A DNA stretch of 20,000 nucleotides from an uncultured virus (IMG/VR IMGVR_UViG_3300001682_000284) (lineage: Duplodnaviria; Heunggongvirae; Uroviricota; Caudoviricetes), in IMG/VR virus record IMGVR_UViG_3300001682_000284. One strand, 5' to 3'. Each line of letters begins with the position of its first letter. The stretch's first letter is position 1. Both the position numbers and the translations under genes were made by a program. Positions 1 through 20,000 of the stretch are shown one piece after another. The notes beneath the pieces were generated by a model. That model was not told the DNA's origin. It was given only the letters and a program-made list of their open reading frames with translations, and searched no databases.

Positions 1-1
1 A

Positions 2-783: not shown

Positions 784-794
784 ACCAAAATAGC

Positions 795-830
795 GTGAAG
801 GTTTTTTAGTAAACCAGTTATAATAAAGAC
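795..830 (+). promoter_or_regulatory. Candidate promoter (TATAAT at 819-824) in the only sizeable intergenic gap of the left arm
   Basis: Perfect -10 hexamer but weak -35. Small inverted repeat GGTTT/AAACC (800-815). Followed by AGGAG and the ATG at 853. Confidence 0.35.
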
Positions 831-852
831 AAAGTTAAAAGGAGAAGTTGTA

Positions 853-1134
853 ATGAAAAAGTTTAAGTTTCCTGATTCAACAGTTTGGTTTCTTACTGAA
901 GATGAATACAAAGTCTTTGTTCCGTTCGATATCGTGAAAGATTTTGAGAAATTTGCAGATAAAAATAAGTTTGCCATTAAAGAGTGTGGAGTATATAATT
1001 ATACGAATAACAAAAAAAGAATTAACGACAGAAATAAAGGAATATTAGCAGATGGCAAAGATTACATTGTTAAAAGAGAATCTAAAGATCTCATTGTATC
1101 TTGGTTAAAGTCTGCTTATAAGGAGATTAATTAA
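853..1134 (+). CDS. Hypothetical protein, 93 aa, no TAG codons
   Basis: Listed in the ORF track. AGGAG RBS upstream. Its stop overlaps the next ATG (TAATG). Confidence 0.8.
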   Translation: MKKFKFPDSTVWFLTEDEYKVFVPFDIVKDFEKFADKNKFAIKECGVYNYTNNKKRINDRNKGILADGKDYIVKRESKDLIVSWLKSAYKEIN

Positions 1135-1946: not shown

Positions 1947-1950
1947 TGTT

Positions 1951-2670
1951 TTGAACAAGAATTAGTTAACAATATATGAATTATACAGAAAGTTATATAG
2001 CAAAATGAAAAATGAAGAATTTGTTATAGATAAAACAGGTGCCAAGATGGTTTAGTTGATGCATTGCGCATTTGATTTAGATCCAACTTTGGGTGGTCAT
2101 TTAAATATAGCAGATATTGCAATAACAAATGAGGATTATGTTTAGAGAGAGATTAAGTGGTGCTTAAGCCAGAATTTAGATGTCAGTGAGTTAGTTCCTT
2201 ATGCTAAGATTTGGAACGAGTGCAAGGGAAATGATGATACGGTAAATTCAAATTATGGATGGTGCGTGTATTCCCCTGACAATCATAATCAATTTTAGAA
2301 GGCGTATCAAGCATTAGTAGAACAGAAGTAGACTAGACGTGGTATGTTAATTTATACCAGACCTACTATGCATGAAGATTATAAATAGAATGGAAAGAAT
2401 GACTTTCTATGTACTCAATTTAATCAGTTCTTGATAAGAAACAATAAATTGTAGATGTTCTATGTTATGCGTAGTAATGATGCAAGATATGGTCTATTTA
2501 TCAATTTCCCATGGGCTTGTTATGTGTATGGGGAAATGTTGCAGAAACTTCAATTGACTTATCCTGAATTGGAATCAGGAATGATTCATTGGTATAGCAC
2601 TAGTTTTCATTTGTATTAGAGGCATTTCAAGATGCTTAAGAAGATGTTTAAAGAATAGGAGAAGGCATGA
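1951..2670 (+). CDS. Thymidylate-synthase-fold enzyme of the T4 gp42 (dNMP hydroxymethylase)-like branch
   Basis: TTG start after AGGAG. Motifs FVIDKTGAKMV[E]L, VNSNYGW, TRRG, YTRP, DFLCT (catalytic Cys), MRSND..YG and SFHLY[E]RHF. Confidence 0.85.
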
Positions 2671-3176
2671 ATTTTAGTTTAACACGATAGACAAAGAGTC
2701 CCAGCAGAGGTCATAAAGAAGATGCGGGAATAGATATTTATGTACCAAAACTTACTGATGAATATTGTAAAGATTTCCATTCAATGAATCTAAATTCTTA
2801 GTACACATTAGACAGACCACACAATAGAATTATAATTAATCCTCATAGTAGAATAAAGCTTCCTACTGGGGTGTATTTCAATATACCAGAAAATAATATG
2901 CTTTTGGTGCTAGAAAAGACGAGTGTTCCAAATAAAACTGGAATTATTAGTGGTGCTAGGGTGATCGATGAAAATTATCAAGGTGAATTTATTGCCTCAT
3001 TAATTAATACGTCTGATAATGAAGCAATTTTGCAATAGGGACAAAAGTTTATACAATTAGTTTTAACTCCCATTCATTAGGATAGAGAATTACAACAAAT
3101 TAATTTTGAATAGCTATTTACGAATAAACAAACAACTCGTGGTAGTGGTGCATTTGGTTCAACAGGATTACATTAA
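2667..3176 (+). CDS. dut: Trimeric dUTPase-family pyrophosphatase
   Basis: Motif I DAGIDI, motif III VIDENYQGE, motif IV FIQLV, motif V RGSGAFGSTG. Motif II is atypical (EKTS). Confidence 0.9.
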
Positions 3177-3189
3177 GGAGATTATATAA

Positions 3190-3402
3190 ATGAAGATAAG
3201 ATTAACCCCAATTAAACCAATTTAGGAAGTAAAGGTCAAAAAAGATTAGAAGAAAGATAAAGCTTAGGTTCTTGAAAAATAGATAATATAGCCAGAAAGA
3301 GAAATTTAGACAATTGAAATTCCTAAAGAATAGAAAATATAGAAAAAAATTGAATAGCCAAAACCTAAAAAAAGGTCTTATAATAAGAAGACTACAGAAT
3401 AA
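3190..3402 (+). CDS. Small Lys/Glu-rich low-complexity protein (70 aa, 9 TAG)
   Basis: AGGAG RBS and ATG. Open to TAA with TAG as sense, filling the dut-polB gap. Confidence 0.65.
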
Positions 3403-3425
3403 TCAAACCCACCAAAGGAGATAAA

Positions 3426-6389
3426 GTGGAAGTTTCAAGGATAACAAGGTTAAGGAATAACGGACAAGATTACATTAGAGTCTTCGGTTACAATTAGAAC
3501 GGAGAACCAATTAAGCAACTAAAGGATTTCAAAAATTACATATTTATATAGAAAAAGTACCTAAAGGACATTAAGTACACCGTAAGGGTGTAGGATTAGC
3601 TATATAAATCATACGACCACAATATTACCTCAAAATACCTTAAGAAGGTCATATTAACAGGGTCTAAGACCTTCATGGTTTCAAAGAAATTGCAGGATAT
3701 AGCATATCAATCAGATATTACTCCTGAAACAAAATATATGTTGGATAATAACTTGTAGTTTTCAAGAAAAAGACATATAGCATTCTTTGACATTGAAACT
3801 TTCTATGATATAGAAAATGACCCAGAAGGAAATAGCGTAGATAACGCAGATTCCCCAATCACATCAATATGTTTCTATTCTAACTTTTTAAGTAGATACT
3901 TTGTATTAGCGTGGCATCCTGATCAGGATACTGGTGACGATCCATTTATAATCAAAGAATTAGGAAAGGATAAAGACCTTTATCTGTGTAAGAATGAAGC
4001 AGTTGTATTGGATACATTTTGTTACCTTATTAAGGAATTAAATGTTGATATTATAACTGGTTGGTATTCTCACGGATATGACGTACCTTACATCATGAAG
4101 AGATTAGTTAAGTTATTTGGCACTGCCGACAAACTTTCTCCCGTTGGAAATACTTGGTTAGGAAATAAGGGAGTATATGATGGTTACTTTAAGATAAAGA
4201 TTAGAGGATTAGACAGTATTGACCTCATGTAGGTCGTTCAATCGCTTAATTACAATCTCCAAAATAATAAACTCGATACTGCTGCAGCATAGATCTTAGG
4301 TGGTAAATACAGAAAGTTGAAAACTTCCAGTTGGAGAGACTGGCAGGACAACTTTAATGGGTTTATCAAGTATGCTATCCGAGATGTCGAGATTTTGTAT
4401 TTAATTGATAAAAAACTAAAGGTGTTTGAATATCTCATTCAGATGCAAATTCTTTCAGGTATTAATAGTTTAAATGATATTATGTCCGTAACTAGACTAA
4501 TTGATGCTATGTTTATTAAGAAGTTTTGGAATAAATTAGTGTTCCCAGACAACAAAGAGTCTAAGAGAGTTAGCTTTAAGGGTGGGTTAACAATAGATCC
4601 CACATCCCCTGGTGTTCATGAAGGTGTAGCGGTATTGGACTATGCGTCTCTTTATCCTACCACGATTATGGCTTATAACATTAGTCCTTAGACATTTCTG
4701 TTTTCTAAGGAACAATTAGGGTAGGAACAATTCCAAAAGGAACTTCAATTCTTGAAGGATAATGATATATCCTTTGTAGATACTGGAGAAAGCTAGGAAT
4801 TGTTTGGTGGAAGATACATATTCTTATCCCATAAGGAACACATTGGTTGTCTACCTTCATTATCGTATGAATTGTATACAATGAGAAAGCAATTCAAGAA
4901 GATAGCTAAAAACGGAGCTACAGCTGACGAGAGATTGGTTGCGGATAAAAAGCAATACGCTATTAAGATCATATTAAACTCTATCTATGGAGCTATGGGA
5001 TTCCCATTCTTTAGATTGTTCGTTCCAGAATGCGCAGATGCTGTAACATTCTTTGGGAGAAAGGCACTTAGATTTGCAATGGACAAGATGAGTCCTTGCG
5101 GATTAGTATTATATGGAGATACGGATTCGGTTACATAGGATTCAATGATTAGATATAGAATAAGAGATAATATGATAAAAAGTTGCGAGATAAAGGGTTT
5201 GTTTGATATGATGGCAAAAGATGTGTTTATTACTAAAGATAATAGATATATAGGTAGTTTACCAGATATTGAATTATAGTATTATGATGAAAAAACTGGA
5301 TAGGTTAGATGGGGCTAGGTTGATTTTATTTAGAAACATTTTGTAGATAAACCTACATTTTAGATAAGTTTTGAGAATGGCAGTTTTGTGGCGGTTACTG
5401 AAGATCATTCTTTGGTTGTTAAAAGAAATGAAAATGTTGTTTAGACTAAGGTTTATTAGTTGCAATAGAATGATCAATTTTATACTTTAAATGGATGGAC
5501 TAAAATGAATAAAATAACCCCCCAAGAACGATATGCTAGGTGGGTTTATGATATCCAAATGAAGGATAACCCTCATACATTTTTTGCTAATGGGGTGTTA
5601 GTCCATAACAGCGTATTCATTAAGTTGAAAGTGGACGAGAACACCCTCAAGGAACAGTTGGAATAGTTCAATAAGGAAGTATTACCAGACCAGTTGATTA
5701 AGAGATTTAATCCTTGCATTGATCTAAAGTATCTTCAATATGAATTGGAGCATGAAAAGAACCTTTCATATTTATACTTGGGAGATAGAAAGAAACGGTA
5801 TTATTCAATTCAACAAGACGGAAGCAAGTATATTCATGGGTTAAACATCATAAAGAAAGACACTCCCGCATATATAAAACAATTACTTGACCAACTTTGT
5901 GAACGAGCGGTAACAGGCAAGTTTTCGGTCAGCGATTTGGAATAGGTTTACAATAAAATTAAGACAGCGGAGTTGGACGAAATAGCCGTTCACAAATCCA
6001 TAACAAAGAGATTTGAAAAGTACAACAAAACTATTCCACAGCATGTATCGGGAGCATTATTTGCTAATGAGCATTTGGGTGTGAAGATTAAGCATAGCGA
6101 TGTCGTTTACTTGTTCTACATTAATAGCTTTTGCGAACCAGAAATTAAACCTGGTGATCGTAAGAATGTGGTATGCCTAAGAAAGGAAGATTTCCCATTA
6201 ATAGCTACTACTGATAAATTTTAGATAGATTATAATGAGTTGATGGAGAAACAATTTATTCAACCATTAAGAGAATTTAATAAGATACCTCAAGTACAGA
6301 AGGCAATAGATGATTGGGGTAAGTTATTTAATGACAATTACAGAATGAACAATAAAGGTTAGTTTGTATTTAAAAAGAGAAAGTTCTAA
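3426..6389 (+). CDS. polB: Family B DNA polymerase with 3'-5' exonuclease, interrupted by an intein (987 aa precursor)
   Basis: GTG start after AGGAG. ExoI FFDIET, ExoII GWYSHGYD, ExoIII YAIRD, DYASLYPTTIMAYNISP[E]T, KIILNSIYG, YGDTD|SVFI, KKRY. The five plus-strand ORF-track fragments (4008, 4317, 4800, 5694, 5973) share one frame. Confidence 0.95.
5127..5609 (+). mobile_element. Mini-intein (161 aa, no homing endonuclease) inserted at YGDTD|S of PolB
   Basis: Starts SVT[E]DS directly after YGDTD. Block B VTEDHSL, blocks F/G WVYDIQM...HTFFANGVLVHN, followed by Ser+1. Removal restores YGDTDSVFI. Confidence 0.93.
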
Positions 6390-6406
6390 ATTAGGAGAAT
6401 ACACGC

Positions 6407-6580
6407 TTGAAACTAGAAAAACATTAGGAAAAATAGCTTTCACTATGCTTTAGAATGGTGTAGGATTTGCAGTATAAACAGTCTAGAGAAGGTCTAAATT
6501 AGCAATAGAAAAAGGATTTACAACATTACAGTCAGAGAAAGAGAGATTTATTAATTAAAATGGACAAGGAATAGGAATGA
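6407..6580 (+). CDS. Small hypothetical protein (57 aa)
   Basis: AGGAG then TTG. Open with TAG as sense. Its TGA overlaps the helicase ATG (ATGA). Confidence 0.55.
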
Positions 6581-8163
6581 ACGAGTGGAGTAAGTATTTC
6601 CCCAAGAAATACAAACCTAGATAGTTGCAGATATAGGCTATATAGTTTGTAAGGGATACATTTTTTGTCAAGAATAAGAAGTTTGCTATATTGTAGTCTC
6701 CCGTAGGTTCGGGGAAATCCTTTATAGCATCAACTATAGCTAACTATGTAAACTCATTATATGAGTTCAATAGGAGCTATATATTAACAACCCAGATAAT
6801 TCTACAAAATCAATACAAGAAAGAGTTCGAATAGTTCGCCAATGTTAGCTCAAAGGCAAACTATTATTGTAGTATGTTCAAAGATTCAACATGTGGAGAC
6901 ATGAAATGGCTCCATTAGTATGGTGGAGTACCCACATGTAAGAATTGCGTCTTCGAACGAGAAAAACAGAATTTCCTCAACAATAAGGTGTCCATAACCA
7001 ATACCGCATTCTTTATGACTAATCTTCAATACAATGAAGACCTAATAAAGGACAGGGAATTTTTAGCTATTGATGAAGCCCACAATTTAGAATAGTAGAT
7101 TATCAAGTATAAATCTATATAGATAGATTGTGCAACTTTAGTTAAAGAATATGCGTTTAATGAATCTTATTGGGTTAAGGAAAGAGAAGATGTATTTAAG
7201 TGGTTAATATAGACATTATATTACTGGCTGCAAGAGAAAGCTACAACTTTGAAGTCTTTCATAGAGAACAATAATAAGGGGTTAAATCTCTCCCGTTCCA
7301 AGGTGATTGATGTTAGTAAGAAGTATGATTTCCTAGATAAACTTTTATGTCAATTAGATAGATCTATAGACGTATTTGATCCTAACAGATGGGTAGTTTA
7401 GAATGATACTGAAAATAAAGTTATAAAGATCACTCCTTTATTTGCTTATGATTTCGCTCAGAGCATGGTATTCAAAAAGGCAAATAAAGTGTTGTTAATG
7501 AGTGGTACCATATTGAATAAATTTGATTATTGCAAGAACTTAGGGATTCCAATCGACGATTGTTAGTTCCTGAGTTTGGATAGCCCATTTCCCGTTGAAA
7601 ATAGAAGAATATTCCTGTTGGATTCGGGATCTATGTCTAAAAAGAATATATAGAAAACTATGCCTAATCTAATTAGGGACATCAAGAAGATTTTAGAATT
7701 ACACAAACATTAGAAGGGCATAATACACGTGTCTTCACATCATATCGCCAATTTAATATTTGATGCTTTACAAAACTCTCGATTAGCCATATCCAGTGAG
7801 TTTAATAATAGAGACGAAATGTTGTAGTATCATTCAGATAACGATAATAGCGTATTAATTTCTCCATCGATGATGGAAGGGGTTGATCTAAAATAGGACT
7901 TAAGTAGATTCCAAATTATAGCTAAGGTTCCATTCCCCAATCTAGGAAACAAGTATATCTCGACTAAGAAGGATTTGGTAAATCATTGGTATTAGTATCA
8001 AACGGCTAAGGCGATAGTGCAAGCATATGGTAGGAGCATAAGATCCTAGTAGGACTACGCAGTAACATATATTTTGGATAGCGATTTTGGTTGGTATTAT
8101 AAGCAAAACAAATAGTTGTTCCCTAAATATTTTAAACAAGCAATTTCATACGGCAAGTTATAA
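6577..8163 (+). CDS. DinG/XPD (Rad3)-family SF2 helicase
   Basis: Q motif FP..YKPR[E]LQ, Walker A L[E]SPVGSGKS, DEAH, LMSGT, EGVDLK[E]DLSRFQIIAKVPFP and motif VI QAYGRSIRS[E][E]DY. Cys residues lie between motifs Ia and II. Confidence 0.92.
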
Positions 8164-8189
8164 TAAAAGAAATCGACAAGGAGTATATT

Positions 8190-8654
8190 ATGCCAAGAGG
8201 AAGACCAAAAAAATAGGTGCAGTAGGTTGTATTCGAAATGAAACAATCTCAAGAAATTTAGAATTTAATCAAAGAAATGATTGAAGAAAACAATATTGAT
8301 ACGGGAACAGCAAAACTTTGCGGATTAATGGTAACTCCATGCATTAACAAGACTACTGCTGGAAGATGTATTAAAGCGGGAAAGGAATTGAAGTTCTTTT
8401 CTGATTACGACTATATTATCTAGATATCACAAGAATATTGGGATAATTTAACAGACTAGGCTAGAAAGATCTTAGTTTTACACGAAGTAATGCATATCGA
8501 TATCCGCTATACTAAATAGGGTAAAGAGGTATTTGGAATGAGGCAACATGATGTGGAAGATTTTGCAGTGTTGCTTGAAAAGTATGGATTGCACTGGTTA
8601 AGAGAAGTTAAACTAGTTTAGGAGCATTTGAAGGACAAAGCATAGGACGAATAA
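8190..8654 (+). CDS. Putative phage metallopeptidase (HExxH)
   Basis: DYII[E]IS..YW..L, LHEVMH and HDVEDFAVLLEKYG pattern. AGGAG RBS. Confidence 0.8.
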
Positions 8655-8656
8655 TT

Positions 8657-8842
8657 ATGGAGCAGATGACGTATTATTGGGTTTGCCCAAGATGTAAGAA
8701 ACAATATGAAACACCGCAGCCAATACCAATAATTAGCAATCATTACATTTGTCCAGAATGTTATTATAAGTATGGCAATTCTTAGGTGAATTAGTGTGCT
8801 CCCGTTATAACTAATGAAAGGAAGGAAAGATTATGGGATTGA
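8657..8842 (+). CDS. Small Zn-ribbon protein (61 aa)
   Basis: CPRC...CPEC pairs. Abuts the previous stop and overlaps the next start. Confidence 0.65.
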
Positions 8843-9324
8843 AAGGTTTAGTTGACAAGGAAACAATAATAGAACGCAGTAATAGTTATGGAAATAACTT
8901 TCCATATCTTGTTGAGATTTGGAAAAACTTTTTGAAGCAGAGATATGATATGGATGTTCCTTTAACGCCAGGCGATGTGGCATTTATGTTTGCATTGCAT
9001 AAGATTAGTAGATTAGCTAATAATCCTGGCGATGAAGATACATTAAGAGACATGATCAATTATGCTTGGTTGGGAATAGATTATGATGATTATGTTGAAT
9101 AGCTTAAATCTGCCAGCAATAACAATGATATTGTTGATAATTTAATAGCTGAAATTAAGGAATTATAGTCTCCAAAAGAATAGGATTAGCAACTTTATTG
9201 TTTCTGGTATAAGAGAGATTGTATTTATGACGAGAATGCCGATTGGGGATCAGTAACAAAATGCCCAATGGGGTATTAGACATGGAACGATTGCGATTTT
9301 AATTCTCCTATTGAAATAAATTGA
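8833..9324 (+). CDS. DUF6378-like protein with acidic, Cys-containing C-terminal extension
   Basis: ERSNSYG..F..LVEIW..FL...LTPGDVAFMFALHKISR.....EDTLRDMINYA pattern. Reads through TAG 9100 to TGA 9322, next to the following ATG. Confidence 0.7.
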
Positions 9325-9325
9325 T

Positions 9326-10204
9326 ATGTTGTCTGATTACATAGAAAAGGTTAGTTATTCTAATATTAGCACTTTTTTGCAATGTCAAAGAAAGTGGAAG
9401 TTAACTTATATTGATAAATTAGATAAGAAATAGGATTCTGCAGATACCATTTATGGCACTGTAATCCATGAAGCTATTCAGAAGTTTTTGCACTATTACT
9501 ATTCAAACACTTTAACGACTTTACAAGCCAATAAATAGAAGTTATTAGAGTAGTATTCGATCTTTATAATGAAGGGTTTAGAATAGGGATTTATCAAGAA
9601 GTTGAATTTATCATATTAGATTACTGAACAGTATTTGGGTTATGGAATGGAACTTATTAAATAGTTTATACCGAATGTTAATAAATGGTTTCCAAAATCA
9701 GGAATGGAACTGTAGGGGACAGAAATTTAGTTGAATGTCAATGAGCCTAATTGGAAAGTTAGATTTAACGGCTATATTGACATATTATTGCATGACAAGA
9801 AGAATGATAGATATAAGATTATAGATTTGAAAACTTCTAGAACCAGTTGGAACGACAACCAAAAAAATGATTAGGTAAAAAGATTGCAATTGTTGCTTTA
9901 TAAGATCTTTTTATCGCAATTAAAATCTATCCCCCTTTAGAATATAGATATAGAGTTCTTGATTCTAAAGAAGATAGTATTTTAGGGTCAATACAAGGTT
10001 AGTAGAATTCAAAAATATTAGCCACCTCACGGTAAGGCGACAATAAACAAAGCTGTTAAGTTATTCAATGAAACTTTGAAAGAAATGGAAATTTTATGCG
10101 AAAGTAAATTGTAGGGAGAAATGAATCCCACTAATTATTGCAATTGGTGTTCATTCTATAAGGAGAAACAGTTATGTAGTAGAAAAAGAACCATCAAAAA
10201 ATAA
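9326..10204 (+). CDS. PD-(D/E)XK nuclease, RecB/AddB/Cas4-like, with probable Fe-S Cys set
   Basis: SYSNISTFLQCQRKW, GTVIHEAI, FNGYIDIL, IIDLKTS, QLLLY and C-terminal CNWC...C. Confidence 0.88.
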
Positions 10205-10575
10205 AGTATTTCAATATACTAATAACAGGCGATAACAACTATAATAATTTATCTAAATTCAACATCCTAATGACATAGATTAGTCAAGAAATAGAACAAG
10301 TTAAGTGTATTGGAACTTTTGGTGGAAAGTATGGAGCTTAGGTTCTAGCACAATTATTTGCCTAGCAATAGGGCATCAAGTTTAAAGAGTTTAGTACGTC
10401 AATGTTTAAGAACGTAAAAAGACCCGAAGGTCAATTATACCATATTTTATTATCTGTTGCCACAAAGTGGTCCGACTTAGTTATTATATTCTCCAATGTT
10501 TACAACAATAAAATTAAATAGATAATTGACATATGTAAAAGGAATGATAAGGAATACATAATAATTAAGGAGTAA
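10174..10575 (+). CDS. SLOG/YspA (DUF2493)-like nucleotide-binding protein
   Basis: AGGAG then ATG-TAG-TAG. ILITGDNNY and GGKYGA[E]VLAQLFA[E]Q[E]GI resemble the SLOG GGAxGAD motif. Confidence 0.6.
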
Positions 10576-10577
10576 TG

Positions 10578-10925
10578 ATGGAAGATTTGAACGTAAAGCA
10601 AAGTTTTCCATGCCCAGACTGCGGTTAGTAGGCAATGGAGTTAATAGAAGATCAAACTTTAATGAGATGTTCCAAATGCAAAGCAGAAATGCAATTAGAT
10701 ACATATGCTATATCGTTGTAGTTAGCTTAGAAAGAGTTAATTATCGAAGCATTAAAGATGTTTCTAGAAGCGGGAACAGGAAGATGTGTAAAGTTTAATG
10801 GCAAGCATTATATTGTTGGATTCGATGATGACTACGATATAGTAACTGAAAAGTATGAATTAGGTTAGAATTAGTAGGAAGGTATGTATGTGAGATTATC
10901 CTTTCAAAAGGAGGAAGGGAAATGA
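10578..10925 (+). CDS. Zn-ribbon-containing hypothetical protein
   Basis: CPDCG...CSKC. AGGAG RBS. Alternative start at 10575. ATGA overlap with the next gene. Confidence 0.7.
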
Positions 10926-11167
10926 ACAATTACAAGTATTATCAAGCAACCGTAAGGTATTCTGTACCTGAAACTACTGCAACGGGGAAAACCCAATTAA
11001 AAACAAAACGAGATTAGTATTTAGTTAATGCTGAATCTATAACAAGTGCTTAGCAAACATTGACGGCTACACTTGGATCATTATACGATAATTTCGAAAT
11101 TATAGCCATTAAATAGAGTATTATTCGTGGCGTAATTACTGAAGTTCAAGACGTATTAGCGGAATAA
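10922..11167 (+). CDS. DUF4494-like small protein
   Basis: YYQATVRY....GK..LKTKRD[E]YLVNAESITSA[E] matches the recalled family pattern YLVDA.SFTEAE. Confidence 0.7.
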
Positions 11168-11182
11168 GGGAGATAACGATTT

Positions 11183-12691
11183 ATGGCAGTTAAGAAGTAC
11201 AAGGTTGGGGAATTAAGAAATGGAACGGAAGTCTTGCCTCCTTAGAAGAGAAAGACCATTCTATTCATTAGCGATCTCCATCTAAGACATAGTGGATTAG
11301 GAAGTCAAAAGAAATAGATTATCTATGAAACCTGTCATCGATACAACTATATAGATATAGGGTTTATCGAAGGTATTAATCCACAAGCACAGTATCCAAT
11401 GTAGGATATAAGTCAAAAGGTTCAAGGGGAAACTGGAGTAGCTGATGCTAGCGTTAGAATATTACCTTATGACATATATGGTCAAGATGTAGTTAAGAAA
11501 CAGAAGGATTTATTGAATTATATCGATCAGCTTAAACCTGACGCATTATATCATTTTACTGATCCTCACTCTTGGTATTGGTTGTATTAGATTTAGAATT
11601 TGATTAGATCTAAGATTCCAATTATTTATTACAATATTTGGGACAATTTGCCATACCCTAAATATAATGAAAGATTCTACTCTTGCTCGGATCTGATAAT
11701 GAACATATCTAAACAGACTCAGAATATTGTAAACAATGTTTGCGTTAATTACAAGAGAGAACCTTGGCAAACTAAATATGTACCACATGGTATTAATATG
11801 GAGACGTTTAGACCTTTAGGGAAGAACAATGCCACATATAAAGCTGTGTCAGATATAGTAAAAAGAGATGATTATGATTTCATCTTCTTGTTCGTTAATA
11901 AGAACATTATACGTAAACAAGCATGTTTAATCATGTAGGCGTTTAAGTGGTTCGTTAACAACTATTTAACTCCCGAACAGAAGAAGAGAACTTGTTTAAT
12001 CATGAAAACTTAGGTAATCTATGGACCAGGCATGCCTCTTAATATTTATCAAGAAGACATCATTCACGATCCAACCGTGGACATTAAGTTTATCAGTCAA
12101 GGAATGGACCAACATGAATTAGTAGCACTTTATAATTGTGCGGACGCATTGATTTCTTATTCCACAGCAGAAGGCTTTGGATTATCTAGTGCTTAGGCTA
12201 TGGCGTGTGGCAAACCATTCATCGCTCCTGTTATTGGTGGACTTCAAGATCAAATGGGATTCGAAGATGAAGATGGCAATTTATATGTAAATAACACTGA
12301 GCTCCCCTCTAATTGTTATAAAGCGTTAACAAAACATAAACCGTGGGCATTTCCAATATTCTTTAGCGGACTGGGTGCAACTGGTTCCATGATAACTCCT
12401 TATATTTATGAAATGTATCATAGTTTAGAAGATTTGATATAGGCGATGAAGATGGTTTATTAGATGCCAAAATAGTAGAGAGAAAAAGTTGGATTGGAAG
12501 CAAGAGAATGGATGCAAACCTAGGAAGTTAAAATGACTTCATCTTGGATGGCACAATCTATGGTAGAAAATATTGATTAGATGTTTGCTAAGTGGAAACC
12601 TAAAAAAGAATACAAAATGTTTAAAGGCATTCCAATAATTAAACATACAAATGCGGGTTCGTTTGACCCAATTAAGAAGATTTGGGAGTAA
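11183..12691 (+). CDS. GT-B fold glycosyltransferase (GT4-like) 1
   Basis: ILFISD...HSGLG, HFTDP, IWDNLPYP, YVPHGI, NKNIIRKQ, LYNCAD and EGFGLSSA[E]AMACGKP (E-x7-E), followed by GGLQDQM. Confidence 0.92.
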
Positions 12692-12693
12692 TT

Positions 12694-13950
12694 ATGTAGA
12701 AAAAGAATATAGCTTTAGCAGCACCTTTCACCTCTTACAGTGGATACGGTTAGTATGGTAGATCAATAGCTTTAATGGTTGTTGATCTTTACAAGGATAA
12801 TACAGATATAACTGTATCTCTGTTTGATTTAACTGGTGGAACTTTAGGATAGAGTGAAAAATTTGATCTAAAATCTTCTAAATTTAATTAGATATAGCCT
12901 TACATTAAGGCTAATGAATAGATATAGAAATAGTTTTTTGATATCTTTATGACAGTATCTATTCCTATGGCATTTGTCCAAAGGGGGTTGATCAATATAG
13001 GAATTACTGCCTTAGCAGAAGTAGATAAGGTTCATCCTCAATTGATATAGCATTGTAATCGTATGGACGAAGTGTATGTGATGTCCGATTTCAATATTGA
13101 CACATTAAAACGCTCAATATTTAAACTTCAAGATGAAAGATAGATTAAATTGAATGTTCCTGTGGATAAGATAGGAGTTCCATTTATTTAGATTACTAGC
13201 AAGGGTAAAACTGATATTACCGATTTCATCACTTCCATCCCTCAGAAGTTCTTATTTCTTTCAGTAGGAGAATGGTTACCAGGATCCATTGGAAACGATA
13301 GAAAGGATATTGGTGCATTAATTTCAACATTCTTGAGAGGATTTGCTAACAATAAAGACATAGGATTAGTCTTAAAGACCAATCAAGGAAGATCATCCCT
13401 TCTATCTTAGTATGGAATTAGAGAAAGAATGAACGAAATTGCAAAGGGATTAGGTATTGAAATTACATTTCCTAATGTCTTTTTCATTAGCGGAAATCTA
13501 ACCTAGTCTCAAATGTTAGAAATTTATAATCATGATAAGATCAAAGCCTATGTAACCTTTACACATGGAGAATCATTAGGTATTCCAATTATAGAGTTTA
13601 TTGGTAACACATAGAAACCTGTGATATTGCCATATCATTCAGGAATGTTAGAATACATTAAACCTGAATATAGTTAGATATTAATTCACAAATAGGTACA
13701 AGTACATCCAGAACTATTCCAATCATTTATGAGAGAGTTTGTAATACCCGAATCGAAATGGTACACTGTCGATTATCAATATTCCCTGTTTAAGATGGGC
13801 TAGGTAGTCAACAACTATAATGTTGTAGCTGGAAGAGCTAAGCATCAAAAAGAACATATTAAATAGAACTATTCAAAAGAAAAGATTCAATAGAAATTGG
13901 CTCTTATGCTGGATAAGCATCTAAAATAGGAAGTATCGCTTGATTTATAA
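12694..13950 (+). CDS. GT-B fold glycosyltransferase (GT4-like) 2
   Basis: APFTSYSGYG[E]YGR, NIGITA, CNRMDEV, FLFLSVGEW, DRKDIG, LVLKT and THGESLGIPIIEF (E-x7-E). Confidence 0.9.
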
Positions 13951-14684
13951 TGGCAGTAAAGAAAAAGATCACTAAGTCTAAACCTAAGAAACCGCCTAGA
14001 AGATATGACCATAAAAGGAATTTATTCTAGAACAAAAGGTTCAAGTTTTAGAAGAAAATCAATAAGAATTAGTTACAACCAGGAATGATTGTAACTTTTG
14101 CTTATAAGGGGATGAATGTTCATGACCCTCAACCTTTAGTTTTGGTGTTAAACAAATATTGGTTGGGTAAGCTACACGGAATAAACCTGAATTATTGCAA
14201 ACCTAGTTAGGTCAATGCTATTGCTAAGATTGTATCGGGAAAAATAGATGCTAAACAAGAAAAATTAGGTCAGAAGTACAATCTTACGAATCCTTTCGGG
14301 TTCTACCACACTTCGCTCAAGAGAGCAATTTTAGGATTGGGAAAGAGCATATACCGAACTTACTTTTTTTCAGGAGTAATGCAACCTAAATTGTTAGACT
14401 TTAAATTTGAAAAGTCTAAAGGGAAATAGGTTTTAGTGTTCACAGATAAGTAGGGTAAAACTCAAGTACAAGTAACTAAGATCAAATCTAGAGAAGCAAA
14501 GAGAGTTACAAAAAAGAAACCACAGGATATCTAGCAGAAAGTTAGTTTAACTAGAAAACAAAAGAATGTAAAGGTTATTCCAAATAATAAGCTTACTTCA
14601 TCTAGAGGCACACCTAGAACTTTACAAGTAAAAAATGTATCGACAATATCAGAACCTCAAGTAATTAAGGTTAAGGAAAAATGA
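13950..14684 (+). CDS. T4 gp2-like DNA end protector / basic DNA-binding virion protein
   Basis: PGMIVTFAY...D..PLVLVL....LHGINLNY and YRTY resemble gp2-family motifs. Lys/Arg-rich termini. Confidence 0.6.
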
Positions 14685-14685
14685 T

Positions 14686-14991
14686 ATGAATAAGATGGGG
14701 CTATTTTCAACTATTCCTAAATTAATAAAGGCTATCCAAGTTGAATAGGTTTAGGAAATATATGATCCTAAGAGCGGTTAGAAGTTTCTAGCTCAAATAG
14801 GGGATTGGAAGGTGATAGATGAAAGGGGAAATGTTTTCGTTATCAACTATTTCTAGTTTGTTGAGAGATATTCCCCTGCAGATTCCACATCGTTTTAGAT
14901 GTTTACAAAGAAAGATTAGATATATGCTTCCAGAGGTAGAATTTTTAACTAGTTGAGAAGCAATATTAAACATATTATAGAATAGAAATAA
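14686..14991 (+). CDS. Hypothetical phage protein (PGDYG/GDW-like motif)
   Basis: KAIQV...AQIGDWKVIDERGNVFVI..F[E]FVERY. Tightly packed between neighbours. Confidence 0.6.
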
Positions 14992-15015
14992 TTGGAGATC
15001 AATAAAAATTAAAGA

Positions 15016-15777
15016 ATGGCAGAGACAAGAGATCTTATAGTTCGTTCCAGTAATAAAACCACACATACAAAATCCTTTATAAGGATAGGGGATGAGTCCC
15101 CATTATCCGTTTCAGAAACAGGTTCTTCAATTTAGTTTCTTGGTGATTTATCTGATATCGCCAAGACATTTGATACCCAAGGAAAGGCTTCTGCGTTTAG
15201 AATAAGACATGATACAGTTAATGGTTACTTAATCTTTGAAGGTAGAAGTGGCAGTAATGGACCATATCAGTTAATGAGATTAAATGACGATACTAACACA
15301 GTTACATTTGGTGGCACAGTAGCCTTCGAAGATATTAGTTTTGATTAGATTACTGGCAGTCATATTTATGTTGGCACTTCATCTAGATTATTAGGCACTA
15401 CGTCAATATCATTCTTATCTATGACAAGTTCTTTAGGAACAGCATCAATTTGGTACGATGGAACTTAGTTGCACATCGACGGATTTAGTTCTAAGGGAAC
15501 TAGTTGGAAAACTCAATATAAAATTACTGCTTCTTACGATTCGAATAGCTATTACAATGTCTACACTTCCAGTGCAACTCAAGTAATTTAGGATTATAAC
15601 TATTTATCGGTATTTCTCAATGGATCCCTTCTTTATGCCAGCGGTTCAATTGCTGATTGGGACTATCAAACGGGAAGTAGTTTAGTTACACCCTCTATCA
15701 AATTCAGATATAATCTACCATACACCTAGTAGGACGAATGGTGGTTAGGTTACATATACAGCGGAGGAGAATCTTAA
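15016..15777 (+). CDS. Probable virion structural protein (Ser/Thr/Gly-rich)
   Basis: Open frame with TAG as sense. Beta-rich composition, C-terminal LSVFLNG..L......DY pattern, TAATG overlap with the next gene. Confidence 0.65.
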
Positions 15778-15962
15778 TGGTATATAACATACCTAATTTT
15801 GCGCTAATCAAATAGTACGACTACTATTATGTGGTGGAGTCTTGTTCATTATCGACTGAGAATGATTAGATTTAGATAACGACATTCAATACTATATAGT
15901 AGTTGCATTAGTACGCAACAATTAATAACATAGAATTGCCTATCTAGGAAATTACAGAATAA
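15777..15962 (+). CDS. Small acidic hypothetical protein (61 aa, 7 TAG)
   Basis: TAATG overlaps at both ends. Confidence 0.6.
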
Positions 15963-17422
15963 TGGCTACAGCAACAGTAACTAGGACGATATCAGATACA
16001 GAACATCGAATCACTGTAACTTCTACAGGTGGTGTAGGAAACGTATCCACAATAGCATAGGTGTATGCTGCAGTGATCGCAGCATAGTCTACTGCAATGT
16101 CTTATGATAGTGGTACCAATACATATACACTACGTAGATTAACTAGTACATTTTCTTCATTTTATATAGGTGCTAATTCTACAGTCTAGATTCCTTAGGG
16201 TACTACATTTATTAATTAGGGAACTACTACTGCACGTGCGTCAAATAAGGTATTTTAGATATCCGAAGATGGAAAGCTAATATTAAAGCCTGGTAGTAGA
16301 ATTAAATTCAGTTAGGCTGGTGGATATCTGTACTTTTATGGTATAGTTAGTGCAGTTGGCACAGCAGCTAACCCTATAATTTGGTAGTCTTATAGATCTT
16401 GCTATTGCTATAGTAGAACTGTAGGTGGCCAAACTAGATTTTAGTGGGTAACATTCAAAAATAATACATATTCAACTGGATATTATTTTTATTTTTCGCA
16501 ATACAATCAATATCGTGCAATACCAATGATATTTAAGAATGTAAAATTTATACGCGATAATTCATCAAAATATGGTCACCCATTCTATTTTTCACCTGGT
16601 GGTATGTATTCAAATGTATAGGTAGATGGTTTTTAGTGTGATTATACTAATGTTATAGTGATTTATGGTTGTTCTGTTAAATTAAAGAATGGAATTATTA
16701 AAAATTTAGCAGGTAATAATATCACCATAAAAGGTGGTGGAAATGTAATATCACCGGCATATTAGACTAGTAAGGACGACACTACATTTCCAACTGGAAG
16801 ATTTCAATCTATGGTTGTACTATAGAATATATAGTTTGATAAACTTGCAAGTACTAGTGCCTACGCAATATACGCAGCGTATAATTCATTAGTATATGTA
16901 AAGAATTGTACGTTTACAGTTACTTCTGGACCAGTGTATCGGGGTGTGTATACAGGGTATGGAAGTACTTTAATTTAGAATAATAATGATTATACCGATA
17001 TTATGTCTAATACTTCAAGAAAGTTGATATCTACAACACCAGGGATATTACTACACGGGCATTAGCTAGATTTAACAGTATTAGATTAGAACAATCAACC
17101 AGTAAATGAAGCAACTGTAACAGTCATTCAAAAATCTAATCCATCTAAATAGCGTTGGTCTGGTCTAACTAACTAGAATGGTAAACTACTAACCGTATAT
17201 AACGACAATCCTGTGTACATATAGAAGGAATAGACCAGTTTAAATGCCTTTCAATACTGGTCAAATCCTGGACACACATTAATGGTTAATAAATCTGGGT
17301 ATAAGCCTAGTATTCAATACTTGTCATTTACTCAAGACAAGACCGTGGTAGTAAAACTGTAGATTCAGCCAGACACAATTGATATTCCTGGATTATAGAT
17401 AGGTTAGGGGATAGTATTTTAA
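15962..17422 (+). CDS. Probable tail-spike/fibre-like protein with beta-helix region and C-terminal beta-sandwich (486 aa, about 24 TAG)
   Basis: No TAA/TGA for 486 codons. AVGTAANPII, FKNVKF and VKNCTF are beta-helix-like. LTVLD[E]NNQPVNEATVTV...TN[E]NG...VNKSGY resembles a carboxypeptidase-regulatory-like domain. Confidence 0.7.
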
Positions 17423-17424
17423 TT

Positions 17425-17895
17425 ATGGCACTTAATATTGGCAGAGGAATAAAACTACAAGGCGGATTGTCCATAGGTAAACAGCAAATTCTGTCGACGA
17501 AGTATTATACCATACAAAATATAGTTTGGCGTGTAATTAATAATAGTTAGTCAATGGAAGGATTTATTTCCCCATATGATACATGTTAGTTTTTTTATTC
17601 TAAGGAAGCAGATAAGTGGAAGTGGATTATATACAGAGATGATGATTTTGCCTACGTATATTAGAGAAAGGATGATACTTTTGAAGGATTTCGTAATGAT
17701 AAAGATAAAGTTCTAATATATACATACAATCCTAATAATGTATCTTATAAAGGATGGCCTAGATGCCTAATAGATTTGAAATGCGACACATTTTATGACG
17801 GAACAAGAGAAATCACAGTCTACCCTAGGGGATAGTGGTACAAACCTAATGCATATTATTAGAATATACTTGCTTAGGCTTTACAATCAATATGA
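17425..17895 (+). CDS. Hypothetical (likely virion-associated) protein
   Basis: Open with TAG as sense. N-terminal MALNIGRGIKLQGGLSIG. Ends in TGA. Confidence 0.65.
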
Positions 17896-17904
17896 CAAAT
17901 TTTA

Positions 17905-18154
17905 GAGTTAAAAGGGAGATGATATAGTCCGATCTACATAGAAATATGTAGTTAACATCAATGCAATACACTGCGTAGGAGGATTAATAACGTGGTCCCA
18001 TATAACTGGATGAATTCGGTGAACATCTTAACGAGAAAGACGAAGACAATACCGAGCCAAGCCAAGAGCCAACTCTTGGAAGGTGTAGAGACTACTGGAG
18101 GAAGAATGGTCTTCCTTAATAACCAGCTTGAGCGTCCAGCTACCCTTTTAACTC
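17905..18154 (+). ncRNA. Circularly permuted group I intron ribozyme (IA-like, opened in L8) flanking a 21-nt internal exon
   Basis: P8 3' strand 17905-17918, J8/7-P7' ATGATA-TAGTCC 17919-17930, P9 GAAA hairpin 17934-17951 and omega-G near 17963 all precede P1 (17981-17998), P3, P4, P5, P6, P7 (GAGACTA 18088-18094), P7.1, P3' and the P8 5' strand (18140-18154). Confidence 0.85.
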
Positions 18155-18175
18155 ATTTTAAGGAAACAACAATTA

Positions 18176-20000
18176 ATGGATAAAGTAATTTTAAACGGAA
18201 ACAAGGCAAGATTCTATAATGAAGGTAATACCTAGTCAGGCTCTATACAATATACGGATAGTAAACTATCTATAAAGGGAAATAGTGCAGGTAGTGGTGT
18301 ATTAATTACTGATGGTAAATTACATTTAAAAAGTGGAAATTCTACTAGTAGTATTACATATAATGCTTCTACAGAAGGAGTTCAGTTTCCAGATGGGTTG
18401 GTTATTATTGGGTAGAATTATGCTGGTAATTATCATGACGTTATTAAGATCAAACATAAAAGTACACCTAAATATTCAGTTTCTATATTAATAGCCGATG
18501 AACCATTCGATGTTGGATTTGCTGCGCCCATTGGATCTTTAGGGTTATATACTGAAGAATCGGGGAACTTATACGGTAAATATGGAAATGCCGATGAAGA
18601 GTGGGGTATGTATGTTAGAACTAATAACTCCGGAGTTGTTTAGCAATTAACATCATCTACTATTCAATTAAAGAATGCAACGAATTAGTCTAAAAGTGGA
18701 AGCATTAGTATTAATGGCTCGTCAAAGTTAGAAGTATCTACAGGAATTTATAGCTTGGGAGATATATATGCGCATGGGACTTTGCAGTCATATAGTGGAC
18801 TATACGTCTATAGCGACGATGGCATGAACAATATATTTAGCGTCACTAATGGTGGAGTATGGTCATATTATAATATCGGCGCATCAGATTCGTAGTATCC
18901 TACATATATTGTTATAGGAAACTCAGAGGTTGATTCGTATATTACCTTAAATTCTGATACGTATTACGTTGGTAATAATTATTTTAACAAATCATTACAA
19001 AGCAACACATTCACTACTGGTTTTGGTGGTTCAGGTTTTGCAATATCTCAATCTAATGGTAGATATATTGCTCAATTCGACGATCTTTGGGTTCGTGGTT
19101 CTATGAATGTTTATGAAATGGTTATTAATCAAATAAGAGCGACAAATGGTTCTCTCTGGATTTCAGATGCCAGTAAAGCAATAAGTGCGTCTTATGATTC
19201 AATAAATAAACGAATAGTATTAAGATTTTAGACTGGTTCTTTAATTCCCTTTATTGCTGGAGACATTCTTCGTTCTAAACGCTGGGGAGTTTCAGGTTCT
19301 ACAACACAATCCGTTTGGGATATTACTACTACAGTTTCTGCTGTCAATTATGCTACTGGATATGTGACACTGTCCGCACCATTAGCGAATAATTCATATA
19401 CTGTAACTGGTTCTGCAAATGGAACTTGGGCACAATTTGTTTCTAAGATTTCTAATTCTGGCTCTTAGTGGGTAAGAGTTGGAAACACCACTAATCCAGA
19501 TAGAAAGGGTTCAATATATATAACTTCTAATGATATTGGTGGACCATTTTTAGATGTTTATGATGGAGTGTCTAGTTCAGTGCAGGCTACTTCAGGTGCA
19601 AGCCAAAGTGTCACTTCTTCTAAGGTCAAAGTTAGAATTGGTAAGCTTAAAGGTATAGTAGATCCCACATTCAATCCTTCGGCATTAAGCGGTTACGGTT
19701 TGTATTCAGATAATGTATTTCTCAAAGGCACTATTAGTGCAAAAGCTGGTGATATAGCAGGTTGGAATCTTAACGATACATCCATTTATAAAAAGGTTTC
19801 TGGTAATACATTTTCAATAACTAATTCTGTAGATGGTGCTGGTTTATTCGTGTATAGTGGAACAAATCCCGTATGGAACAATAGCAGTACAAAAGTATAT
19901 ATTGGTTCAGATGGTAAGTTTTCACTTGGAAATAAATTAAAATTTAGTGGGGGTCAATTATCAATTTCAGGCATCGAAGCTGATGTTGGTGAACTTGGTG
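18176..20000 (+). CDS. Large tail fibre / host-specificity-type structural protein (partial, runs off the window)
   Basis: AAGGA RBS. Gly/Ser/Thr-rich. FTTGFGGSGF..AQFDDLWVRGSMNVYEMVINQIRATNGSLWISD, VRVGNTTNPDRKGSIY, GPFLDVYDGV and GYGLYSDNVFLKG patterns recalled from phage tail proteins. Confidence 0.8.

What the first reader, a model, noticed from the sequence alone, without database searches (positions are those of the whole stretch)
17905..18154. Naturally permuted group I intron (3' half before 5' half) between structural genes
Seen: all core helices can be built, but in permuted order. P3 CTGGATG 18006-18012 / CGTCCAG 18133-18139. P4 TTCGGT 18015-18020 / ACCGAG 18051-18056. P5 TCTT/AAGA. 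P6a CCAAGAG/CTCTTGG. P7 G(A)GACTA 18088-18094 pairs with TAGTCC 17925-17930, which lies upstream. P7.1 spans 18095-18126. P8 CCCTTTTAACTC 18143-18154 is the exact 12-bp complement of GAGTTAAAAGGG 17905-17916, closing the two ends. P9 is CTACATA-GAAA-TATGTAG, P9.0 is GAT/ATC, and omega-G is at 17963. P1 GGAT(T)/GGTCC carries a U.G at 17984. Established: this is the topology of engineered permuted intron-exon (PIE) constructs that circularise RNA, and natural permuted group II introns are known. Inference: back-splicing would cut the polycistronic late transcript between the 17425 gene and the tail gene and release a tiny circle, acting as a built-in mRNA processing device. Alternatively the halves trans-splice with partner halves elsewhere. 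No homing endonuclease or interrupted host gene is adjacent.
Basis: partly seen in the sequence, partly recalled or inferred. Interest (0 to 1): 0.9.

Follow-up and report, generated by a model that had tools for sequence, protein, structure and literature searches.

The report
Back-to-front self-splicing ribozyme in phage
Between two late genes of an uncultured phage lies a compact self-splicing-type (group I) RNA enzyme whose two halves are encoded in swapped order, an arrangement known from laboratory RNA-circle constructs and one coral mitochondrial intron but apparently not described as a small stand-alone natural element.

Summary
In the 280-nt gap between a 156-aa gene (17425-17895) and a tail-fibre gene (18176 onward) of a TAG-recoded phage, Rfam's group I model matches in two pieces in swapped order. 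Positions 17880-17951 match the model's 3' end (162-253, 31.6 bits). Positions 18004-18140 match its middle (48-158, 28.8 bits).

Five other assemblies carry the same order (contigs L017, L026, L031; runs X1, X2). Among the window and the three contigs, the ribozyme core is nearly invariant (4 of 229 columns vary). The adjacent gene varies at 33 of 471 columns, and the 20-21-nt linker between the predicted splice sites at 4 of 22. No partner halves occur elsewhere, and the nearest relatives are ordinary canonical-order phage introns.

The most likely reading is a circularly permuted group I ribozyme kept by selection. It probably cuts the late transcript by GTP-dependent back-splicing and releases a tiny circle. 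Activity is untested.

Six literature searches found one natural precedent, the giant coral mitochondrial intron ND5-717. I class this as a new variant of a known kind.

The parts
17425..17895 (+). Upstream gene, 156 aa with TAG read as Gln, stop TGA 17893-95, function unknown. It lies inside the conserved island.
   Evidence: Open only with TAG read through. Open in all 4 variants, with 14-16 amino-acid differences. No PHROG or Pfam match. Fold unusable, pLDDT 38.
17905..17916 (+). P8 3' strand (GAGUUAAAAGGG). It pairs with 18143-18154 and closes the permuted ribozyme.
   Evidence: 12 of 12 Watson-Crick pairs. It is the outermost helix of the MFE fold. 17913 A>G in L026 and X1 gives G.U.
17917..17930 (+). 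J8/7 (AGAUGAUA) and the P7 3' strand (UAGUCC).
   Evidence: Aligned to the consensus GAAGAUAUAGUC of RF00028 with posterior probability near 1. Invariant in all variants.
17931..17963 (+). J7/9 with P9.0 (GAU 17931-33 with AUC 17957-59), the P9 hairpin 17934-17951 (GAAA loop), the 3' tail, and the proposed omega-G at 17963.
   Evidence: The Flavobacterium-phage P9 differs by fully compensatory changes. Similarity to the cr131_1 intron ends at G17963. Invariant among variants.
17964..17984 (+). Linker, the 'exon' of the permuted intron-exon layout (3'-exon remnant joined to 5'-exon remnant). Its last four bases, GGAU 17981-84, form the exon strand of P1, ending in U17984 of the U.G pair.
   Evidence: Hypervariable: 4 of 22 columns vary, against 4 of 229 in the core. 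It is 21 nt in the window and 20 nt in L017 and L031. X1 carries 5 substitutions and 2 indels here.
17985..18005 (+). P1 loop and internal guide strand (UGGUCC 17993-98), then J1/3. There is no P2.
   Evidence: 17985 U>C in L017, L026 and L031 turns U.G into C-G. 17980 A>G in X1 would add a pair with C17999.
18006..18094 (+). P3 5' strand, P4-P5 domain, P6/P6a, J6/7 and the P7 5' strand with bulged A18089.
   Evidence: RF00028 positions 48-148. Helices verified. P4 and P6a are kept through compensatory changes against canonical relatives. Invariant among variants.
18095..18126 (+). P7.1 extension hairpin (CUGG/CCAG closing GAGGAAGA/UCUUCCUU), typical of phage group I introns.
   Evidence: Nearly the same sequence in the cr6_1 canonical intron.
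18133..18154 (+). P3 3' strand (18133-39) and P8 5' strand (18143-54).
   Evidence: 18144 C>T in L026 gives G.U. 18147 T>G in X1 breaks one pair.
18176..20000 (+). Downstream tail-fibre-like gene. It runs off the window. A ribosome-binding-like AAGGAAA lies between P8 and the ATG.
   Evidence: phrog_33450 tail fiber protein, E 1.7e-24. The first ~100 nt are about 99-100% conserved, and beyond ~18300 the relatives diverge to about 50%.

Best explanation
This is a compact (~250 nt) group I ribozyme encoded in circularly permuted order and opened in the P8 loop.

Layout: the transcript first carries P8', J8/7, P7', P9 and the terminal G (17905-17963). Next comes a 20-21-nt non-coding linker (17964-17984). 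Then come P1, P3, P4-P6, P7, P7.1, P3' and P8 (17985-18154). A 12-bp P8 and P7 bring the two halves together into a normal group I core.

Shown:
- it is group I by identity;
- the order is swapped;
- all core helices are complete;
- the arrangement recurs in related phages;
- the core is constrained while the linker is free to vary.

Inferred mechanism: as in engineered permuted intron-exon constructs, free GTP attacks after U17984. The freed 3'-OH of the linker then attacks after G17963. The products would be:
- a 20-21-nt RNA circle;
- an upstream mRNA ending in the 3' half of the ribozyme;
- a tail-fibre mRNA that begins with the added G and the structured 5' half.

The net effect would be a built-in, protein-independent cut of the late polycistronic transcript just upstream of the tail-fibre gene's ribosome-binding site.
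For: - Split Rfam RF00028 hits in swapped order: 17880-17951 matches model positions 162-253 (31.6 bits, E 4.9e-7). 18004-18140 matches positions 48-158 (28.8 bits, E 1.7e-5).
- All helices verified. Fold z = -4.28.
- The same order stands in L017, L026 and L031. It also stands in contigs of two laid DNA runs that bridge the whole element without joints (X1 17425-18672; X2 17548-18243).
- Variable columns among the window and 3 contigs: core 4 of 229, adjacent gene 33 of 471 (p = 0.003), its third codon positions 10 of 156 (p = 0.024), linker 4 of 22 (linker against core p = 0.0025).
- All three helix changes among these four sequences keep pairing: A-U to G.U, G-C to G.U, U.G to C-G.
- The window obeys the family's covariation. 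11 of 16 predicted pairs in P4, P6 and P6a are kept through double changes across 7 sequences. P3 differs from cr6_1 by two compensatory pairs.
- The nearest relatives are complete canonical introns scoring 77-97 bits. In cr6_1, P8 is a short hairpin, whereas here it is a 12-bp inter-end helix.
- Exactly one 5' half and one 3' half occur per source in 34,884 bases searched with filters off. The next-best hit is 11.4 bits or lower.
- No promoter or terminator signal splits the element.
Against: - No activity data exist.
- As one unit the element fails Rfam's gathering score.
- Only a handful of closely related variants are known, so covariation within the permuted family itself is minimal: 3 compatible changes and no double compensatory change.
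- In X1, 18147 T>G creates an A.G mismatch in P8.
- The first ~94 nt of the tail gene are equally invariant (1 of 94). Part of the low divergence could therefore reflect a recently shared tract rather than selection on the RNA.
- P9.0 and the choice of G17963 as the terminal G rest on conservation boundaries only.
- No convincing P10 was found.
- No other permuted member turned up in four pattern scans.
Confidence: 0.6

Rival explanations
1. Catalytically dead relic. A rearranged intron remnant survives as a folded RNA (for example a stabilising 5' or 3' structure or a protein-binding site), or simply has not yet decayed.
For: There are no activity data. Divergence among the known variants is small, and the neighbouring tail-gene start is equally invariant (1 of 94 columns). 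One P8 pair is broken in X1. The contiguous Rfam score is sub-threshold.
Against: The core varies about 4 times less than the third codon positions of the adjacent gene, while the linker embedded within it varies freely. The catalytic junctions J8/7 and J6/7, the bulged P7 and the U.G pair are all intact. The conservation edges coincide with the predicted splice sites.
Confidence: 0.2
2. Conserved DNA linker for module exchange. The island 17370-18270 is kept alike because recombination between phages swaps tail-fibre modules there, and the RNA fold is incidental.
For: The flanks are mosaic. The gene upstream is 16-30% diverged. The tail gene falls to about 50% identity beyond ~18300, while the island stays at 93% or more.
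Against: This does not explain two significant Rfam group I hits, complete core helices and a 12-bp closing stem. It also does not explain why the 21-nt linker in the middle of the tract is the most variable part.
Confidence: 0.08
3. Two independent half-introns. They trans-splice with partner halves elsewhere, or they are the ends of two neighbouring canonical introns, as in L027.
For: Tandem complete introns separated by a mini-exon do exist in nature (L027: 54.6 and 47 bits, both over model 1-253). Trans-splicing group I introns are known in organelles (mentioned in PMC6545197, section 11).
Against: With filters off, only one 5' half and one 3' half were found in the window and in three related contigs. 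The two halves are complementary to each other in P7 and P8. The flanking sequences are whole open genes. The linker is 20 or 21 nt, so it is not a conserved reading frame.
Confidence: 0.04
4. The region encodes the 63-aa ORF 17992-18183 (GTG start) rather than an RNA.
For: The ORF is open under table 11 and contains no TAG.
Against: It has no family match. It covers only the 5' half, overlaps the start of the tail gene, and does not explain the Rfam hits or the 12-bp helix between the two ends.
Confidence: 0.02
5. Assembly artefact (mis-join or collapsed duplication).
For: None beyond the unusual order.
Against: The same order stands in three metagenome contigs and in contigs of two other runs, at 95-99% identity and with no joints.
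Confidence: 0.01

Closest known systems
Engineered permuted intron-exon (PIE) group I constructs (Anabaena pre-tRNA, T4 td, Tetrahymena). Cited as refs 37-39 in PMC6545197; details recalled.
   Same: The 3' half of the intron lies upstream of the 5' half on one transcript. An exon segment lies between the 3' and 5' splice sites. A peripheral loop is opened. The expected products are a circular exon and two intron halves.
   Different: This element is natural and genome-encoded. The 'exon' is only 20-21 nt, non-coding and variable. The opened P8 is extended to a 12-bp helix. The intron halves continue into flanking mRNAs, so the main consequence would be scission of the transcript.
ND5-717 giant group I intron of corallimorpharian mitochondria (Chi et al. 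2019, PMC6545197; abstract and sections 9 and 11 read).
   Same: It is a natural group I intron processed from a permuted precursor. The opening is also at P8. A circular exon RNA was detected there.
   Different: In the coral, permutation follows from an 18-19-kb P8 insertion on a circular genome. The exons encode ND5 and the circle is 2.1 kb. Here the ribozyme is a compact ~250-nt intergenic element in a phage, with no host gene to restore.
Canonical phage group I introns with P7.1 (crAss-like cr6_1 and cr131_1, Flavobacterium phage immuto, Vibrio phage PS17B-2; Rfam RF00028).
   Same: The core sequence motifs are the same (GAUGAUAUAGUCC, GGAUGAAUUC, GAGACUACUGGAGGAA...UAAUAACCAG) and so are the helices. 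The 3' half is 91% identical to that of cr131_1.
   Different: Those introns are in canonical order, score 77-97 bits over model 1-253 and have a short P8 hairpin. cr131_1 carries an ORF with a LAGLIDADG-like motif (read by eye).
Circularly permuted group II ribozymes (Roth et al. 2021, PMC8637638; passages read).
   Same: They are natural permuted self-splicing ribozymes that stand alone, do not interrupt an ORF, and make RNA circles.
   Different: They belong to a different ribozyme class with a different chemistry (branching), occur in bacteria and have the partner protein AcpG. Nothing of group II was listed here: the only matches at E up to 10 were RF00028 and a chance snoRNA-like match.
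Lariat-capping (GIR1) ribozyme, a group I derivative (as described in PMC8637638, Discussion).
   Same: It is a group I-derived ribozyme placed upstream of a gene that creates and protects a new mRNA 5' end.
   Different: GIR1 has a remodelled core and makes a 3-nt lariat by branching. The element here keeps an ordinary group I core, and no such family was listed at E up to 10.

Membership tests
Group I intron ribozyme (Rfam RF00028) | Contiguous match to the covariance model at or above the gathering score (50 bits). | tested here: not met
   0 hits at gathering threshold. 28.8 bits over model positions 5-158 only. Nothing at whole-window scale.
Group I intron ribozyme (Rfam RF00028) | Conserved core present: the P3-P8 and P4-P6 domains with J3/4, J6/7 and J8/7. 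| tested here: met
   Two significant partial hits together cover model positions 48-253 (31.6 and 28.8 bits). Helices verified. Compensatory changes against canonical relatives.
Group I intron ribozyme (Rfam RF00028) | P7 guanosine-binding helix with a bulged nucleotide, pseudoknotted with P3. | tested here: met
   G(A)GACUA 18088-94 pairs with UAGUCC 17925-30 and crosses P3. This is shown at sequence level only.
Group I intron ribozyme (Rfam RF00028) | P1 with a U.G wobble at the 5' splice site, and a terminal G at the 3' splice site. | tested here: inconclusive
   U17984.G17995 is conserved, and 17985 U>C keeps P1. G17963 is supported by the point where similarity to cr131_1 ends and where variation begins. 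The cleavage sites were not observed.
Group I intron ribozyme (Rfam RF00028) | Canonical 5'-to-3' domain order, interrupting a host gene whose exons are rejoined. | tested here: not met
   The 3' half lies upstream of the 5' half. The element is intergenic between whole ORFs. The linker is 20 or 21 nt.
Group I intron ribozyme (Rfam RF00028) | GTP-dependent self-splicing. | not testable with these tools
   The RNA runs laid did not cover the element.
Permuted intron-exon (back-splicing) group I RNA | The 3' splice site lies upstream of the 5' splice site on one strand, with an exon segment between them. The break is in a peripheral loop closed by a helix. | tested here: met
   The linker is 17964-17984. 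P8 is 12 bp. No promoter or terminator signal lies between the halves.
Permuted intron-exon (back-splicing) group I RNA | Circular exon product. | not testable with these tools
   No raw RNA reads were available. The contigs of the RNA runs did not cover 17900-18160 of this phage.
Trans-splicing split group I intron | Each half is attached to a coding exon, with a partner half elsewhere. | tested here: not met
   No further halves in 34,884 bases with filters off. The flanking genes are complete. The whole genome is not held, so distant partners cannot be fully excluded.
Circularly permuted group II ribozyme / lariat-capping ribozyme | Match to those RNA families. | tested here: not met
   Only RF00028, and a chance snoRNA-like match, appeared at E up to 10 in 17800-18300.

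The most novel reading that the evidence does not exclude
This may be the first compact, genome-encoded, circularly permuted group I ribozyme class. In this reading a phage has domesticated a self-splicing intron into a GTP-powered processing device for its late mRNA. The device back-splices out a 20-21-nt RNA circle and separates the tail-fibre message from the upstream message. The new message would start with the added guanosine nucleotide (a triphosphate end if GTP is used) and a folded half-ribozyme. This is a route to a protected 5' end that small self-cleaving ribozymes cannot give.
Probability: 0.4. Interest if true: 0.9.

Novelty: new variant of a known kind. Interest (0 to 1): 0.8.

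Why it matters
Permuted group I introns are the workhorse of synthetic circular-RNA production. Six full-text searches here found a natural counterpart only in the giant coral mitochondrial intron ND5-717.

A small natural version kept by selection would show that evolution found the same trick. It would be the group I counterpart of the circularly permuted group II ribozymes described in 2021. It would also add a GTP-dependent ribozyme to the ways phages may process polycistronic mRNAs.

It offers a naturally optimised, very small P8-split scaffold (12-bp closing stem, no P2) with a minimal exon. That makes the lower size limit of ribozyme-made RNA circles directly testable.

It also shows that routine Rfam annotation is blind to permuted ribozymes. 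There was nothing at gathering threshold or at whole-window scale, so more such elements may be hidden.

Tried and rejected
- Whole genome: none is held.
- Relatives through the flanking proteins: the 156-aa protein found none. The tail fibre found only one distant locus, L016 (34% identity to residues 257-599), which I did not examine further.
- Megablast of the whole window against deposited phages: no match.
- Pattern scans for other permuted members:
  - viral contigs, 15 loci, all chance (0 Rfam hits);
  - viral contigs with a second pattern, 8 loci, none permuted;
  - prokaryote genomes, 16 loci, all chance;
  - metagenome contigs, 15 loci: 3 true relatives, one pair of tandem canonical introns (L027) and 11 chance matches.
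  These patterns fix motif spacing, so absence is weak evidence.
- RNA evidence: the two RNA runs laid (X15, X18; contigs only) covered parts of the tail gene and another organism's intron fragment, but not this element. This says nothing about expression or ends.
- A conventional 3' half downstream (a TAGTCA at 18233-38 seen by eye): rejected. Rfam and my own 3'-half model find nothing there, and the stretch lies in the conserved coding start of the tail gene.
- P10 pairing: only candidates that overlap the P1 strand were found.
- The small hairpin 17961-65 with 17972-76 in the MFE fold is not kept in the variants.
- Upstream protein: the structure prediction was unusable (pLDDT 38, pTM 0.33), so no fold search was run. 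The protein atlas does not take recoded proteins.
- Comparing the upstream protein with the cr131_1 intron ORF failed, because that ORF contains recoded stops.

Full report
CONTEXT

Under table 11 or table 4 the window has only short ORFs. With TAG read through it resolves into tightly packed + strand genes. These include a family-B DNA polymerase, a helicase, an exonuclease, two glycosyltransferases and a tail-fibre-like protein.

One window TAG codon (17587) is CAG in relative L026, which fits TAG = Gln. The polymerase is only about 26% identical to T4-like enzymes. Megablast of the whole window finds no deposited phage. This is therefore an uncharacterised recoded phage. No whole genome is held.

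The finding lies in a 280-nt gap. Upstream is a 156-aa gene of unknown function (17425-17895, stop TGA). Downstream is the tail-fibre-like gene (18176 onward).

THE OBSERVATION

- P8 is a perfect 12-bp pairing of 18143-54 with 17905-16.
- P3, P4, P5, P6a, P7.1, P9 and P9.0 are all present.
- P7 has G18088-C17930 across a bulged A18089.
- P1 ends in U17984.G17995.

The gap folds far better than shuffles (-74.8 kcal/mol, z = -4.28, 0 of 200 shuffles as good). The window's other large gap, 6390-6576, is unstructured (z = +2.0). An unconstrained fold of 17905-18154 recovers all helices except P7, which is the pseudoknot partner of P3.

IS IT GROUP I, AND IS IT PERMUTED?

At gathering threshold Rfam reports nothing. 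A sensitive scan of the gap gives RF00028 at 28.8 bits, covering only model positions 5-158 of 253.

Scanning the two proposed halves separately is decisive.
- 17880-17951 matches the end of the model (positions 162-253: P8', J8/7, P7', P9) at 31.6 bits, E 4.9e-7.
- 18004-18140 matches positions 48-158 (P3, P4, P5, P6, J6/7, P7, P3') at 28.8 bits, E 1.7e-5.

The 3' part of the ribozyme therefore lies upstream of the 5' part on the same strand. These E-values are for short searches. Scaling them to 20 kb (my inference) leaves both near 1e-4 to 1e-3.

The nearest relatives in deposited phages are complete canonical introns.
- Scores over model positions 1-253: crAss-like cr6_1 96.7 bits, Vibrio phage 83.3, Flavobacterium phage 76.9.
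- cr6_1 shares the P7.1 sequence and the J8/7-P7' motif, but has a short ordinary P8 hairpin.
- cr131_1 has a ~925-nt canonical intron with an ORF after P7. Its 3' end is 91% identical to 17918-17963, and the similarity stops at the G aligned to 17963.

Across the window, L026 and five canonical introns, 11 of 16 predicted P4, P6 and P6a pairs are kept through double changes. P3 differs from cr6_1 by two compensatory pairs. P9 differs from the Flavobacterium phage by fully compensatory changes.

RIVALS TO THE PERMUTED TOPOLOGY

Assembly artefact is excluded.
- Metagenome contigs L017, L031 and L026 carry the same order.
- Contigs of two laid DNA runs bridge the whole element without joints. 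X1 covers 17425-18672 with 58 substitutions. X2 covers 17548-18243 with 23 substitutions.

Tandem or nested canonical introns do occur in nature. L027, picked up by the same pattern, is two complete introns separated by a mini-exon (54.6 and 47 bits).

That is not the case here. I built covariance models of each half from canonical relatives plus the window and ran them with filters off over the window and the three related contigs (34,884 bases). They find exactly one 5' half and one 3' half per source. Everything else scores 11.4 bits or less, with E of 0.3 or more.

Those models contain the window's own sequence, so their top hits are matches by construction. Only the absence of further hits counts as evidence.

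No promoter-like enrichment or + strand terminator splits the element.

SELECTION

The element sits in a conserved island (about 17370-18270, 93% identity or more). The flanks are mosaic: the gene upstream is 16-30% diverged, and the tail gene falls to about 50% identity beyond ~18300.

Variable columns among the window, L017, L026 and L031 (L017 and L031 are identical within the element):

| Region | Variable columns | Comparison with the core |
|---|---|---|
| Ribozyme core | 4 of 229 | n/a |
| Adjacent gene | 33 of 471 | Fisher p = 0.003 |
| Third codon positions of that gene | 10 of 156 | p = 0.024 |
| Linker | 4 of 22 | p = 0.0025 |

The three changes inside helices keep pairing: 17913 A>G and 18144 C>T give G.U in P8, and 17985 U>C gives C-G in P1.

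For X1, one search lists no change in 17914-17964 or 17981-18146, but five substitutions and two indels in 17965-17980. Only 40 of 111 difference rows were shown in that call, so this is not complete.

Against the selection reading:
- X1's 18147 T>G makes an A.G mismatch in P8.
- The first 94 nt of the tail gene are just as invariant, with 1 variable column.
- The variants are too close to give double compensatory changes within the permuted family itself.

The variable stretch begins right after G17963 and ends before the GGAU that pairs in P1. These are the predicted splice-site boundaries.

MECHANISM (INFERRED)

The layout is that of a permuted intron-exon RNA opened in P8.
1. Exogenous GTP would attack after U17984.
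2. The linker's new 3'-OH would then attack after G17963.

Expected products:
- a 20-21-nt circle;
- an upstream mRNA ending in the 3' half;
- a tail-fibre mRNA that begins with the added G and the folded 5' half, about 20 nt upstream of its ribosome-binding site.

The linker length varies (20 or 21 nt) and so does its sequence. The circle itself is therefore unlikely to be the functional product. Transcript scission, and the structured ends it leaves, are the more likely point.

Variants I cannot distinguish:
- first-step cleavage only;
- 3'-splice-site hydrolysis followed by attack of G17963 on the 5' splice site. This would re-join the mRNA without the linker.

The upstream stop codon lies 9 nt before P8', so terminating ribosomes may transiently unfold the ribozyme (inference).

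A plausible origin is a tandem duplication, or a tandem-intron arrangement like L027, followed by loss of the outer halves (inference).

COMPARISON WITH WHAT IS KNOWN

Six full-text searches found no compact natural permuted group I ribozyme in phages or bacteria.

The one natural precedent is ND5-717 of corallimorpharian mitochondria.
- Its P8 holds almost the whole circular genome.
- A permuted precursor back-splices to a 2.1-kb circle carrying the ND5 exons (PMC6545197; abstract and sections 9 and 11 read).
- That paper calls it the first natural group I intron excised by back-splicing.

Natural circularly permuted group II ribozymes are known (PMC8637638, passages read). Papers outside the held library cannot be excluded.

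Two earlier notes of this scan (e1-7993054 and e1-5318462, unchecked by me) describe free-standing, differently rewired group I ribozymes between phage genes. They hint at a wider theme of phage-domesticated group I ribozymes.

VERDICT

The structural interpretation is supported. The function is inferred and untested. I class it as a new variant of a known kind, of high interest.

Noticed in passing
window 1-20000: The whole window is TAG-recoded. Genes are open only with TAG read through, with 5-24 in-frame TAGs per gene, replication genes included. A TAG-to-CAG difference at 17587 in L026 supports Gln. No suppressor tRNA lies in the window.
   Followed up: partly
window 3426-6389 (DNA polymerase, residues ~570-730): There is a probable mini-intein at the YGDTD|S motif of the family-B polymerase. 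The DNA_pol_B match stops at residue 570. Pfam Intein_splicing scores 35.0 bits against a cut-off of 35.8, at residues 691-728. The phage would then carry both a protein-level and an RNA-level self-splicing element.
   Followed up: partly
L027 1355-1848 (- strand): Two complete canonical group I introns sit in tandem, separated by a mini-exon of only about 10-20 nt. This is a natural '3' half, mini-exon, 5' half' neighbourhood that could be a precursor of the permuted form. The host gene was not identified.
   Followed up: partly
L034 330-451 and 489-748 (crAss-like phage cr6_1): A RAGATH-7-assoc RNA (133.4 bits) lies directly upstream of a complete group I intron (96.7 bits) in a stretch with no annotated gene, next to an 'endonuclease' gene on the other strand.
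   Followed up: no
L032/L036 (crAss-like phage cr131_1, record 60189-61113): The record annotates two 'hypothetical' CDSs where there appears to be one ~925-nt group I intron. The intron carries an ORF with a LAGLIDADG-like motif (read by eye) that contains recoded stops.
   Followed up: partly
window 17370-18270 against its flanks: The tail region is mosaic. The N-terminal ~30 codons of the tail-fibre gene are about 100% conserved among relatives, while the rest is replaced by unrelated sequence. This is the usual anchor-plus-swappable-tip design.
   Followed up: partly
L033 486-741 (Flavobacterium phage immuto): A complete group I intron (76.9 bits) lies just downstream of a tail-fibre gene. 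It overlaps two short annotated 'hypothetical' CDSs that are probably mis-calls.
   Followed up: no
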